In this document: positions 1-3,000 of the stretch, one piece after another | Layout of the letters: every line of letters begins with the position of its first letter | Position numbering within the stretch: the stretch's first letter is position 1 | Assembly: GCF_003334255.1 (NCBI RefSeq) | Contig: NZ_QOWU01000125.1 | Strand: one strand, 5' to 3' | Length of the DNA stretch: 3,229 nt | Source: Escherichia coli | GTDB lineage: Bacteria > Pseudomonadota > Gammaproteobacteria > Enterobacterales > Enterobacteriaceae | Program-made: the position numbers

Positions 1-3000
1 ACCTTCATCGCAGCACCTTCCTGTTTTTATGCCCCATGAAAAAAAACGGCAGGCAAAACTCCTGTGCCTGCCGTCATACTTCATGTCACCTTCAGCAATT
101 AAAACTCGAAGTTCACACCAACGTTCCAGGAGGCATCCCCATCACTGAATGCCACGCCTGCTTTCGCTGCGGTCTGCTCGTTGAAGCGGTAACCCACACC
201 CACTGCCAGTGCCTGCTGGTCGCTGTAACCACCAACCGCTGCCGTGGCGTTGAATTTACCCACACTGTACGGCTGGAACAGACCTGTCAGGGCCGCAGAC
301 TGTGCTGCTGCACGCTTCATTTCCTTGTGGTTTTCATTAATCTGGCGCTGCTGGCTGTCCAGACGTGCTGAATGTTGCTGCAGCGTACGGGTATTGGCTG
401 CAATCGCCTTGCTGTTTTTCTCAATGGATTGCGTGTTACGGGTGACACGGCCATCAATGGCACCAACTGCTGCATCAATACGGTCAGTACGACCAGACAG
501 GGCCACCAGACCATCGTTAACAGAAATGGTGTTCTTTGCACCTTCTGCACGGGTCAGGGTGCCATCAGAACTCACACCAACCAGTGTGCGGGATTCGACT
601 TTTGCAGCTGTTGCAGCAGCCGCAGCATCAATCTTGTCGGTACGCGTGGTCAGTTCACCAAGATTTTTCTTCTGCGCTTCAAGCTCGCCTTTCTGAGCAT
701 CAAGCTTGCCTTTCTGAGCTTCAAGCTCATTCGCAACAATGGTGGAGTTGGCGGACTCCCATGCCAGATAGCGCTGCAAAGATACGCGTTCTTTTATTTC
801 ATTCGGTGTTACAGCCACATTTCCATACTCATCCAGGCCGACGTTGGTTTCCATCTGCTGGATTGCTGAAACGCGGTTGTACAGGTCACGGATATTCTGT
901 TCTGTCAGGAGGTTTGTCTTAATATCATCAGTTTTCCCTGATGCCGCAGCCTTCATGAAATCATGAACTTCTTTATCATAAACAGTAAATGTTGTTGAGC
1001 CGTCTGCGGAGGTAATTGTAACATTACCATTGCCATCTATTTTACTGAGAAGTGGAATCGGCTTATTTCGCTCTTTTTCCACATCACCTAAGCCACCCCA
1101 ATCAATATGTGCCGTTTTATTATCTGGGTTATAATATACTTTATAAATACTCCCAGCGCCGTTCTGAGCATTTAAAGCAGAATAAGATTGCTCAGCAGCC
1201 ATAATATCAAAGCTAACCCCAAACAAAACACCTGCCATTGCCGCAGACAAAACAGCCTTTGTAAATTTCTTGCTCATGTGGTATACCCTATAAAATTATC
1301 TGTATACAAATAAAACAGTTCAACATCGGATATATAAAGAAAATCTGATGTCTCGCCGCTATCATGAGCTTACTCCTGAAGAAATTCCGAATTTTAATAT
1401 GAAGTTTTTCGGAATTTCCTTACTATAACGTCGGTGATATCACGTTCGCGAAGGGATATCCGCATTACGACTGGCCTGCCACTTATGCTGTCTCTTTATT
1501 CATCAACAATTTGTATACGGTTACATATTTAATTGTGAAGTTAGTCACAAAAAGAAGAAAGTCAAATAATCAAATTGTGCTTAACTGTTTACATCAGCAC
1601 AATCTGATGACCATTGAAGGACGCACTAAATTATTTTCAGCAATCCCTCAGCCTACGAAAATTCTGTATTTGATAATTGTTTTATTTGCTCTCTTTTTAT
1701 GCAGCCATTCTGTTGCTTATAAAAAAGCACCACTATCCGCGCCCTCATCTCAATATCTTTGTCGCCGGATAAAAATAACTATCAACCACAAGTATCATGC
1801 TCTCGGGGAGCGCGCACTCCCCCACTTTTTTTATCCCTGACAGGGTCAGGAGGCCGTTGCATCTCCTTTAATTATCATTGCCAGATTATTTCCTCGACCT
1901 GAGTATTCTTTATTTAGCCATAGCTTTGTAGCAAGGGGCTGGAGCGCCCCTCTTTTTTTCACCTGTCAGCCATGCCGACCTTATACGCCAGTATAGCTTC
2001 CGCATCACCCAGCGCTTCAATCTCTTTTTTCATCGTGCGCTGTCTGACATGAATTTCCAGACCTTTGGTAAACATCGCCTGCTCTGCAGCAGCACTCAGA
2101 GCAATCAGTGTTTCAGCGTCCATCGGTACGTCATTATTGTCCGCATCCGTCCAGAAAAACTGCTCCGGCAGTTTCCCCGCTTTCGCTGCCGCCACCGACG
2201 GCTCAAGACGCGTCTGCGTTGACTTCCCGTAGTCCCATTTACGCCCATTGTGCTCAAACGTGTAGTTCGCCGCTTCCATCGCATTACGCCAGGCATTAAT
2301 TTCCACCTTTTTCCGTTCACGTGACTGTGTTAAAGCTTCCGGCGGTTCTTCATACGGCTTAATCTCTCCATACCTGCCGGAAATTAAATCAGTAAAAAGT
2401 TGTCGTCCGTGATTTTCCGGATCATTTTCTGACGCAGTAAAAGGAAACCATTGCTCACCAATTTTTATCTCACAGGAAATATTACCCAATCGAGTATATA
2501 CCGCCCCCCTGACGTCTGTTACAACAATCGCCATTCTTCCCCCTGTATTACACAATGCGTTGAAATAACGTTAAGTTTGTTGTCATGGTCTGCTCATCGT
2601 ATCCGGGAGCACCCAGACTTAAAGCAGACACAAAAGCCCGCCATGTCCCCGGGATACTGTTTCCGGCATTATGAACAATCGAGAACGTGGGCGAATACGT
2701 GACGCCAACGCGGTAAAGAATCGCCACTTCAGTAATTTTTTCGCCATTGATATTCTCTTTAATTGCACTTTCACTTTCGAGAGTCGATATCGAACCAAAT
2801 AAGAAAGAGCCAACCGCATATTTTTCTGTGGATACATTACCATTCCTGCCTGCTGCCCCCTGCGGCCCTGCCGGACCACGAGGGCCTGCCGGGCCGGTTT
2901 TCCCCTGCGGCCCCGCGGGACCTGTTGCTCCGGGTTCGCCTTTGTCCCCTTTTGGCCCCGGGGCACCTTTGGCTCCGGCTGCACCAGCCGGTCCCTGAGG

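What the first reader, a model, noticed from the sequence alone, without database searches (positions are those of the whole stretch)
1281..1307. Two GTATAC palindromes 21 bp apart overlapping the candidate adhesin promoter and leader
GTATAC occurs at 1281-1286 and 1302-1307, two helical turns apart. One falls in the spacer of the candidate -35/-10 and one in the leader, a geometry typical of repressor operators that occlude RNA polymerase. A third copy lies at 1513-1518. In AT-rich DNA this could still be chance.
Basis: seen in the sequence. Interest (0 to 1): 0.25.

Follow-up and report, generated by a model that had tools for sequence, protein, structure and literature searches.

The report
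One conserved dyad upstream of eibA
Of two identical six-base palindromes in front of a prophage-borne E. coli adhesin gene (eibA), only one belongs to a conserved 12-18-base symmetric element that probably helps control the gene; the other sits in the ribosome-binding region and looks coincidental, so the proposed two-operator switch is not supported.

Summary
The window is the eibA locus of prophage P-EibA (E. coli ECOR-9, 99.7% identical to AF151091). eibA lies on the minus strand (1277->99). GTATAC is at 1281-1286, 1302-1307 and 1513-1518 as reported. GTATAC itself is rare by chance (P~0.0002), but a pair of any palindromic hexamer at helical spacing occurs in ~5% of local shuffles. Across seven diverged eib promoter types, the distal copy is kept in five. 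It is the core of an 18-bp dyad (1296-1313, 8/9 pairs, perfect in some variants) whose centre is always 26-27 bp from the ATG. It overlaps the spacer and -10 of the only sigma70-like promoter candidate. The proximal copy lies between the Shine-Dalgarno AGGG and the ATG and is kept in two of seven types. It shares only 1-2 of 12 flanking bases with the distal copy. The third copy is not conserved. RNA pairing of the two hexamers has no support. Best reading: one conserved cis-element, probably a protein-binding dyad at the core promoter, plus two incidental hexamers. No transcription start is mapped in the accessible literature. In passing I found a positionally conserved CRP-like box (1534-1549, perfect core), which may mark an upstream promoter.

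The parts
99..1277 (-). eibA coding sequence: a 392-aa immunoglobulin-binding trimeric autotransporter adhesin with a YadA-type C-terminal anchor.
   Evidence: ORF. Annotated as eibA in AF151091. Matches the solved EibD and YadA anchor structures. RefSeq calls it a YadA C-terminal domain-containing protein.
38..75 (-). Intrinsic terminator after eibA: a GC-rich hairpin followed by a run of 8 U.
   Evidence: Fold gives -30.2 kcal/mol, z = -4.5. The depositors annotated a stem_loop at window 46-74.
1281..1286 (.). Proximal GTATAC. It lies between the Shine-Dalgarno and the start codon, and its first base on the gene strand (1286) is the last G of AGGG. I read it as incidental.
   Evidence: Present in only 2 of 7 promoter types. 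Flanks unrelated to the distal copy.
1286..1289 (-). Shine-Dalgarno-like AGGG; its AGG core (1289-1287) lies 9 nt upstream of the ATG.
   Evidence: Read from the sequence. The aligned positions in other types are AGGA, GAGGA or GGGAG.
1302..1307 (.). Distal GTATAC, the core of the conserved dyad.
   Evidence: Invariant in eibA, eibC, eibD and eibE. Present in 5 of 7 promoter types.
1296..1313 (.). 18-bp dyad, TTATTTGTA|TACAgATAA on the gene strand. 8 of 9 symmetric pairs match; the one mismatched pair is 1300/1309. Candidate protein-binding site at the core promoter.
   Evidence: Palindrome I3. It is a perfect 18-mer in L005 and L089. It ties as the most conserved 10-bp window.
1295..1300 (-). 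Candidate -10 hexamer GATAAT.
   Evidence: The second-position A (1299) is invariant across types, while the last T (1295) is kept in 4 of 7.
1318..1323 (-). Candidate -35 hexamer TTGAAC, 17-bp spacer. Not conserved in other types.
1335..1350 (-). Conserved block CATCAGATTTTCTTTA, at about -47 to -62 from the predicted start. It ties with the dyad as the most conserved block.
1381..1418 (-). Stem-loop GAAATTCCGAA-N16-TTCGGAATTTC, annotated by the depositors.
   Evidence: Fold gives -15.2 kcal/mol, z = -3.6. A similar inverted repeat exists in L015 but not in most other types.
1513..1518 (.). Third GTATAC. It is kept within type A only; the aligned positions in other types read GATGTG, GAGATA or ACTGTG.
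1534..1549 (.). CRP-like box TGTGAagttagTCACA with a perfect core, centred 264 bp upstream of the ATG.
   Evidence: 0 of 200 shuffles contain one. Positionally conserved with 0-1 core mismatches in 6 of 7 types, with different spacers.
1545..1608 (-). Hairpin (arms 1608-1596 and 1581-1569) followed by a U-rich run, immediately upstream of the CRP-like box. Terminator-like on the gene strand.
   Evidence: Inverted repeat I2. Fold gives -19.1 kcal/mol, z = -2.9.

Best explanation
The two GTATAC copies are not a pair of operators.

The distal copy (1302-1307) is the centre of a conserved 12-18-bp dyad, core TTTGTATACAAA, spanning window 1296-1313. Its centre sits at a fixed 26-27 bp from the start codon of eib-type prophage adhesin genes. 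The dyad overlaps the spacer and the -10 (GATAAT) of the only sigma70-like promoter candidate. I take it to be one DNA-level cis-regulatory site: most likely the binding site of a dimeric regulator that controls RNA polymerase access to the -10 region of this self-contained prophage 'moron' gene, which is known to respond to growth phase, temperature, agitation and the IbrAB activator.

The proximal copy (1281-1286) is incidental. It is made of the last G of the Shine-Dalgarno AGGG, an alternating A/T spacer, and a C. The third copy (1513-1518) is also incidental.

Shown: positions, dyad symmetry, the conservation pattern, and the lack of RNA-structure support. Inferred: that the predicted promoter is used, that a protein binds the dyad, and the direction of regulation.
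For: - Identity of the locus and strand.
- The distal hexamer lies in an invariant 19-bp block in eibA, eibC, eibD and eibE. It is kept in 5 of 7 diverged promoter types.
- TTTGTATACA ties as the most conserved 10-bp window, at 0.89 identity (column mean 0.72).
- Conserved columns cluster into blocks: 17 windows reach >=0.85 against 2.4 expected, P~0.001.
- Dyad symmetry is 8/9 pairs in eibA, 9/9 in L005, and 6-8/9 in the other positive types, with the centre always 26-27 bp from the ATG. Cells pair in 75% of cases against 33-51% when the partner column is slid.
- The best sigma70-like candidate in types A, C, L014, L015 and L017 has its -10 directly 3' of the dyad, ending 12-17 nt before the ATG.
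- The proximal copy is in 2 of 7 types, has unrelated flanks (1-2 of 12), and overlaps the SD.
- Natural variants with 22-bp spacing exist.
- RNA alternatives fail: fold z-scores are between -1.4 and +1.7, and there is no covariation above shuffles.
- eib genes are transcriptionally and conditionally regulated and IbrAB-dependent (PMC4352079, PMC5450701, PMC7649339).
Against: - No transcription start is mapped. The promoter match count is not above shuffles (2 found, 2.8 expected).
- The predicted start, about 1288, falls inside the Shine-Dalgarno and leaves a leader of only ~11 nt, which is unusual.
- Types C and L019 have no consensus-grade promoter at this position.
- An 18-bp dyad with >=8/9 pairs arises in ~10% of shuffles of this region.
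- The single best conserved window is not exceptional on its own (P = 0.26).
- Two types, L017 and L014, lack the dyad yet keep an intact gene.
- Within type A, the absence of SNPs in the hexamers is not significant (about 1.7 expected).
- A conserved CRP-like box ~260 bp upstream suggests the real promoter may lie far upstream. The dyad would then be in a long 5' UTR.
- No known regulator box matches the dyad.
Confidence: 0.45

Rival explanations
1. The two GTATAC hexamers are twin operators two helical turns apart, bound cooperatively by one repressor that occludes RNA polymerase at the eibA promoter and early leader.
For: Exact 21-bp spacing. One copy lies in the -35/-10 spacer and one just downstream of the -10. 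Both copies and the spacing recur in the diverged L019/L026 type, whose upstream DNA differs. GTATAC taken on its own is very improbable locally (P = 0.0002).
Against: - Both copies are present in only 2 of 7 promoter types.
- The flanks of the two copies are unrelated (1-2 of 12), whereas real operator repeats share 12-20 bp.
- The distal site has its own 18-bp symmetry that the proximal site lacks.
- Variants with 22-bp spacing exist.
- The proximal copy is explained by the SD plus an A/T spacer.
- After correcting for post-hoc choice of the hexamer, P~0.05.
Confidence: 0.07
2. The distal block is simply core-promoter DNA, that is spacer, extended -10 and -10, conserved for RNA polymerase or sigma recognition. 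No dedicated regulator binds it, and the dyad symmetry is a by-product of T-rich/A-rich flanks around TATA.
For: The -10 candidate abuts the dyad, and the -11 A (1299) is invariant. L014, which lacks the dyad, has a strong consensus promoter at the homologous place. The dyad is only ~10% improbable by chance.
Against: The most conserved bases, TTTGTATACA, lie in the spacer, which sigma70 normally does not read. The -10 hexamer itself is less conserved than the dyad core. The -35 is not conserved.
Confidence: 0.2
3. The dyad acts as RNA. Transcription starts far upstream, at a promoter associated with the CRP-like box, and the dyad forms a small AU-rich hairpin just 5' of the Shine-Dalgarno in a ~200-nt leader, affecting mRNA stability or translation.
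For: - A conserved CRP-like box sits 256-276 bp upstream in 6 of 7 types, preceded by a terminator-like hairpin.
- In folds, the dyad forms its own hairpin in eibA, L012 and L015.
- All non-Watson-Crick positions in the inner seven pairs are G.U-compatible on the sense strand.
- The proximal promoter would give an oddly short leader.
Against: - Covariation does not exceed shuffles (119-261 of 500 shuffles reach the observed values).
- Fold energies are not better than shuffles.
- The sequence is conserved, not merely the pairing, and L017 loses pairing without any compensating change.
- The G.U pattern rests on about three independent A-to-G transitions.
- The upstream promoter is itself unproven.
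Confidence: 0.13
4. There is no function at all. All three hexamers and the dyad are chance features of AT-rich DNA, carried along because eib upstream modules are young and spread by recombination.
For: Type A upstream DNA is 97-99% identical across 40 distinct loci, so most 'conservation' there is shared descent. Post-hoc P is 0.05-0.26 for the hexamers and 0.10 for the dyad. Two types lack the dyad.
Against: Between types the region has diverged to ~67% mean identity, yet the dyad core is identical in five of them and sits at a fixed distance from the ATG. Conserved columns cluster significantly.
Confidence: 0.15

Closest known systems
Single palindromic operators that overlap the -10 or spacer of a promoter (for example LexA boxes, lac O1, lambdoid repressor operators)
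   Same: A dyad-symmetric 12-18-bp element overlaps the predicted -10 and spacer, sits at a fixed position, and is conserved across homologous promoters.
   Different: No binding protein is known. The sequence matches none of the LexA, FNR or Fur boxes tested, and the only CRP-box match lies ~240 bp away from the dyad. There is only one good site, not an array. The promoter and its start site are predicted only.
Prophage 'morons': independently transcribed lysogenic-conversion genes inserted in the late region, such as lambda bor and lom (from general knowledge)
   Same: eibA sits between tail-fibre genes and downstream ORFs. It has a strong terminator of its own and terminator-like hairpins upstream. 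The leader region is AT-rich. The adhesin bodies are swapped behind a conserved upstream module.
   Different: The moron promoter has not been mapped here. The regulatory region is unusually long (680 bp) and carries several conserved blocks.
ParB-parS type recognition, as a lead for the eib activator IbrB, which is annotated with a ParBc domain (PMC4490671; Sandt et al. 2002 as cited in PMC7649339)
   Same: ParB-family proteins typically recognise ~16-bp palindromes. eib promoters share a 12-18-bp palindrome, and eib expression needs IbrAB.
   Different: This is purely an inference. No IbrB binding data were accessible, the sequence is unrelated to the canonical parS, and I could not test co-occurrence of ibrAB with the dyad.
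CRP-dependent promoters (for the element noticed in passing at 1534-1549)
   Same: A perfect TGTGA-N6-TCACA core with A/T-rich flanks. The arms are conserved and the spacers variable across types.
   Different: No conserved -10 was found at class I or class II distances in all types. It lies ~260 bp from the ATG. Nothing in the accessible literature links CRP to eib.

Membership tests
Twin (cooperative) repressor operators flanking a promoter | Two or more copies of the same extended recognition sequence (typically 12-20 bp). | tested here: not met
   Only the 6-bp core is shared. The flanks match at 1-2 of 12 positions.
Twin (cooperative) repressor operators flanking a promoter | Both copies are conserved in homologous promoters. 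| tested here: not met
   Both copies are present in 2 of 7 promoter types. The proximal copy is replaced by GATATC, GATATATC, GAATCATAC or GTATAG.
Twin (cooperative) repressor operators flanking a promoter | The spacing is constrained to an integral number of helical turns. | tested here: inconclusive
   The spacing is 21 bp wherever both copies occur, except in 3 distinct loci with a 1-bp insertion (22 bp). Most of the loci with both copies are near-identical type A sequences.
Twin (cooperative) repressor operators flanking a promoter | The sites overlap the -35/-10 elements or the transcription start of a real promoter. | tested here: inconclusive
   This holds for the predicted promoter TTGAAC-17-GATAAT. 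That promoter is not above shuffle expectation, and no start site is mapped.
Single dyad-symmetric operator at a core promoter | Dyad symmetry over at least 12 bp. | tested here: met
   8 of 9 pairs over 18 bp in eibA and 9 of 9 in L005 and L089. The 12-bp core TTTGTATACAAA is perfect in four sequences.
Single dyad-symmetric operator at a core promoter | Sequence and position are conserved across diverged homologous promoters, above the level of the flanks. | tested here: met
   Kept in 5 of 7 types, with the centre 26-27 bp from the ATG. Ties as the top 10-bp window at 0.89 identity, and the conserved blocks cluster with P~0.001. Caveat: the single-window test gives P = 0.26.
Single dyad-symmetric operator at a core promoter | A cognate DNA-binding protein, and an effect on transcription. 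| not testable with these tools
   This needs EMSA or footprinting and reporter mutagenesis. No known box matches.
Sigma70 promoter | -35 and -10 hexamers with a 16-18-bp spacer and a mapped start site. | tested here: inconclusive
   A 9/12 match in eibA, and a homologous-position match in L014. No match in types C or L019. The match count is not above shuffles. No start site has been published that I could reach.
RNA hairpin or thermometer that sequesters the ribosome-binding site | A stable structure pairing the two GUAUAC copies, or occluding the SD, that is better than shuffles. | tested here: not met
   The eibA minimum-energy fold does not pair the two copies. z-scores range from -1.4 to +1.7.
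RNA hairpin or thermometer that sequesters the ribosome-binding site | Compensatory base changes that preserve the pairs. | tested here: not met
   For hexamer-to-hexamer pairing there are 0 double changes, and all 500 shuffles do at least as well. For the dyad hairpin there is 1 double change, reached by 261 of 500 shuffles.
Prophage moron | A gene inserted in a late operon with its own terminator (and promoter). | tested here: met
   The gene lies between the tail-fibre/tail-fibre-assembly genes and orf-156A. It has a strong terminator downstream. Its own promoter is predicted only.
CRP-dependent promoter (side finding) | A TGTGA-N6-TCACA box, conserved, at -41.5 or -61.5 from a start site. 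| tested here: inconclusive
   The box is perfect and positionally conserved in 6 of 7 types. The distance to a start site is unknown, and no -10 is shared by all types.

The most novel reading that the evidence does not exclude
The conserved dyad (TTTGTATACAAA core, 26-27 bp upstream of the start codon) is the DNA target through which the poorly understood IbrAB pair switches on eib prophage adhesin genes. IbrB is ParB-like and IbrA is PAPS-reductase-like. That would give a parS-like recognition site repurposed for transcriptional activation of morons scattered over several prophages, possibly working together with an upstream CRP site.
Probability: 0.1. Interest if true: 0.55.

Novelty: new member of a known kind. 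Interest (0 to 1): 0.22.

Why it matters
Eib proteins are prophage-borne immunoglobulin-binding adhesins of commensal and Shiga-toxin-producing E. coli. Their expression is tightly conditional: static culture, 37 C, late growth phase, and dependence on IbrAB. In the literature I could reach, no promoter, start site or operator has been defined.

Separating the one conserved dyad from two coincidental hexamers gives a specific, small target (1296-1313) for mutagenesis and protein pull-down. The conserved CRP-like box noticed upstream gives a second target. Together they make the question of how eib morons are switched on directly testable.

Otherwise this is an ordinary kind of feature, a candidate operator or promoter element. 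The specific two-operator idea is not supported.

Tried and rejected
- **RNA pairing of the two GUAUAC copies, or a thermometer over the SD.** Rejected: the folds are not better than shuffles and there is no covariation.
- **Scanning viral contigs for the extended palindrome, to find it in front of other genes.** Uninformative: more than 120 hits in unrelated AT-rich contigs, as chance would give for a 16-mer in that much DNA.
- **Species-representative genomes searched with the Eib family alignment.** Only distant adhesins sharing the C-terminal anchor turned up (Neisseria, Sutterella, Moraxella, Edwardsiella). Their promoters are not homologous.
- **A second viral scan with the family alignment, plus five divergent phage and E. 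coli hits.** No new promoter types.
- **SNP avoidance of the hexamers within type A.** Not significant: 0 hits observed against ~1.7 expected.
- **Known boxes at the dyad.** LexA, FNR and Fur show no match there. The only CRP match is ~240 bp away. Resemblances to Lrp, H-NS, PhoP, ArcA and MerR-type sites recalled from memory were too weak or had the wrong spacing, so I did not pursue them.
- **Other occurrences of the 12-mer in the 11-kb P-EibA record.** None.
- **Primary papers (Sandt & Hill 2000; Sandt, Hopper & Hill 2002).** Not held in the library, so I cannot exclude that they describe the upstream region.
- **Rfam.** No match anywhere in the window.
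Full report
**What the window is.** The 3229-bp window is 99.7% identical to the eibA region of prophage P-EibA from E. coli ECOR-9 (AF151091). All genes run on the minus strand:
- a collagen-repeat tail-fibre gene, down to 2548;
- orf-191A, a DUF4376 tail-fibre-assembly-like gene (2555-1959);
- a 680-bp AT-rich intergenic region;
- eibA (1277-99, 392 aa), a YadA-type immunoglobulin-binding trimeric autotransporter.

eibA is followed by a strong intrinsic terminator (-30.2 kcal/mol, U8). The 'adhesin promoter' of the finding must therefore be read on the minus strand, to the right of 1277.

**The observation.** GTATAC occurs at 1281-1286, 1302-1307 and 1513-1518 and nowhere else. The distal hexamer lies in the spacer, touching the -10. 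The proximal hexamer lies downstream, and more tellingly it lies between the Shine-Dalgarno-like AGGG (1289-1286) and the ATG, sharing its first G with the SD.

On statistics, GTATAC itself is very unlikely in shuffles of the intergenic region (mean 0.094 copies; P(>=3) = 0.0002). But the hexamer was chosen after looking. Some palindromic hexamer occurs >=3 times in 26% of shuffles, and some palindromic hexamer pair at helical spacing occurs in 4.9%.

**Homologous promoters.** I collected eib-like loci four ways:
- by protein search in viral contigs;
- by a coding-start DNA pattern that excludes the hexamers, in viral and metagenome contigs;
- from the four ECOR-9 paralogues;
- from divergent phage and E. 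coli genome hits.

They fall into seven upstream 'types' about 67% identical to one another over 160 bp.

Type A (eibA-like) is found in about 40 distinct loci. Their 400 bp upstream are 97-99% identical even though the signal peptides and adhesin heads differ. These count as roughly one observation, and the absence of SNPs in the hexamers there is not significant (about 1.7 expected).

Across types the results are:
- The distal hexamer is kept in five of seven (A, C, L019/L026, L012, L015). L017 has GTGTGC and L014 has GTACAT.
- The proximal hexamer is kept in two (A, L019/L026). Elsewhere it reads GATATC, GATATATC, GAATCATAC or GTATAG.
- The third copy aligns with GATGTG, GAGATA or ACTGTG in other types.
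- Three distinct type A variants carry a 1-bp insertion between the two copies, giving 22-bp spacing.
- The two copies share only 1-2 of 12 flanking positions, unlike repeated operators.

**What the distal copy is.** It is the centre of an 18-bp dyad, TTATTTGTA|TACAgATAA (1296-1313), with 8 of 9 symmetric pairs. Two type A variants (L005, L089) carry the A that makes it a perfect 18-mer. The 12-bp core TTTGTATACAAA is perfect in L005, L019, L012 and L015, and the centre is always 26-27 bp from the ATG.

TTTGTATACA ties with ATCAGATTTT (1349-1340) as the most conserved 10-bp window across types (0.89). Conserved columns cluster into blocks far more than column shuffling gives (17 windows at >=0.85 against 2.4 expected, P~0.001), although the single best window is not exceptional by itself (P = 0.26). 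A dyad this good arises in ~10% of shuffles of the region, so symmetry alone is weak evidence. It is the combination of symmetry, sequence conservation and fixed position that makes a functional element likely.

**DNA or RNA?** Because GUAUAC is self-complementary, the two copies could pair and mask the ribosome-binding site. The minimum-energy fold of the eibA leader does not use that pairing, fold energies are no better than shuffles (z from -1.4 to +1.7), and across types the pairing shows no double changes and does not exceed any shuffle.

The dyad folding on itself does better than slid controls (75% of cells paired against 33-51%), but its covariation is within shuffles. All non-Watson-Crick positions in the inner seven pairs are G.U-compatible on the sense strand. 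That rests on about three A-to-G transitions, and L017 loses the pairing without any compensating change. What is conserved is the sequence, not just the pairing, which favours sequence-specific recognition, most simply by a protein on DNA.

**The promoter problem.** A simple weight-matrix scan puts the best sigma70-like candidate of types A, C, L014, L015 and L017 at the same place, with a -10 ending 12-17 nt before the ATG, directly 3' of the dyad. L014, which lacks the dyad, has a near-consensus TTGACT-17/18 promoter there.

Against this:
- promoter-like matches are not enriched over shuffles;
- types C and L019 have none at consensus grade;
- the -35 is not conserved;
- the inferred start (~1288) falls inside the SD and leaves an ~11-nt leader.

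No accessible paper maps an eib start site. What is known is that eibG mRNA and protein rise in static culture at 37 C and fall at 23 C or with shaking, that expression peaks in late-exponential and stationary phase, and that IbrAB activates eib genes (PMC4352079, PMC5450701, PMC7649339). The primary Sandt & Hill papers are not held.

**A second lead found in passing.** While testing known palindromic boxes (LexA, FNR and Fur do not match at the dyad), I found a perfect CRP core, TGTGAagttagTCACA, at 1534-1549 (0 of 200 shuffles contain one). A box with 0-1 core mismatches lies 256-276 bp upstream of the ATG in six of seven types. The arms are conserved and the 6-bp spacers differ, which is a footprint-like pattern. 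In eibA it is immediately preceded on the gene strand by a hairpin and a U-rich run (-19.1 kcal/mol, z = -2.9), as if the tail-fibre transcript ends there and a new unit begins.

I could not find a -10 at class I or class II distance shared by all types, so this remains a lead. It matters for the finding because, if the real promoter is there, the dyad lies in a ~200-nt leader rather than in a promoter spacer.

**Verdict.** My best account (confidence 0.45) is one conserved DNA-level cis-element, a dyad at the core promoter that is probably a binding site for a dimeric regulator, plus two incidental hexamers.

The rivals are:
- core-promoter DNA with no dedicated regulator (0.20);
- no function (0.15);
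- a leader RNA hairpin (0.13);
- the twin-operator model (0.07).

The most novel reading not excluded is that the dyad is the target of the ParB-like IbrB of the IbrAB activator (annotation in PMC4490671; inference only). This is a new, uncharacterised instance of a familiar kind of element. Interest is modest.

Noticed in passing
window 1534-1549: A perfect CRP-box core, TGTGAagttagTCACA, centred 264 bp upstream of the eibA ATG. A box with 0-1 core mismatches sits 256-276 bp upstream in 6 of 7 eib promoter types, with conserved arms and differing spacers. It may mark a CRP-dependent upstream promoter for eib genes.
   Followed up: partly
window 1545-1608 (minus strand): A 13-bp-arm hairpin (1608-1596 / 1581-1569) followed by a U-rich run, directly upstream of the CRP-like box. 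The fold is -19.1 kcal/mol, z = -2.9. It looks like a terminator for the tail-fibre operon.
   Followed up: partly
window 1608-1618: An 11-bp unit (TTCAATGGTCA on the gene strand), overlapping the 5' arm of that hairpin, varies in copy number among type A loci. 15 of 40 distinct loci have an extra copy and one has two extra.
   Followed up: no
window 1335-1350: The block CATCAGATTTTCTTTA is as conserved across promoter types as the dyad (0.89). It lies at about -47 to -62 from the predicted start, where an UP element or activator site would sit.
   Followed up: partly
window 1381-1418: The depositor-annotated stem-loop, GAAATTCCGAA-N16-TTCGGAATTTC (-15.2 kcal/mol, z = -3.6), has no proper U-tract. 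L015 has a comparable TTCCTAAAAA/TTTTTAGGAA repeat, type C has a different AT-only palindrome, and the other types have none.
   Followed up: partly
window 1436-1441 and 1455-1460: A second palindromic hexamer, GATATC, also occurs twice, 19 bp apart, in the same intergenic region. GATATC is also what replaces the proximal GTATAC in eibC, eibD and eibE.
   Followed up: no
window 1542-1570, 1805-1830 and 1934-1960 (plus strand): On the strand opposite to eibA there is a promoter-like site (TAGTCA-17-AATAAT) overlapping the CRP-like box, and two terminator-like hairpins with T-runs. Four terminator-like sites were found against 0.7 expected. This could be a ~250-nt antisense or divergent transcript. 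RefSeq annotates nothing there and Rfam finds nothing.
   Followed up: no
window ~1640-1958: eibA has about 320 bp of extra intergenic DNA compared with eibC, eibD and eibE, whose intergenic regions are ~360 bp. Type A loci diverge from each other beyond about 1667.
   Followed up: no
window 1278-1677; loci L005-L113: The type A upstream module is 97-99% identical in ~40 distinct loci whose signal peptides and adhesin heads differ strongly. Regulatory region plus start codon therefore behave as a conserved cassette boundary behind which adhesin bodies are exchanged.
   Followed up: partly
L025, L093, L107 (aligned to window ~1290): A 1-bp insertion (TTTTATTAGGG instead of TTTTATAGGG) between the two hexamers changes their spacing to 22 bp in three distinct natural loci.
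   Followed up: yes
window ~2840-3060 (minus strand): Collagen-like Gly-X-Y repeats in the tail-fibre gene, 66-70% GC. This is typical of E. coli prophage tail fibres (PMC3368898 was listed).
   Followed up: no
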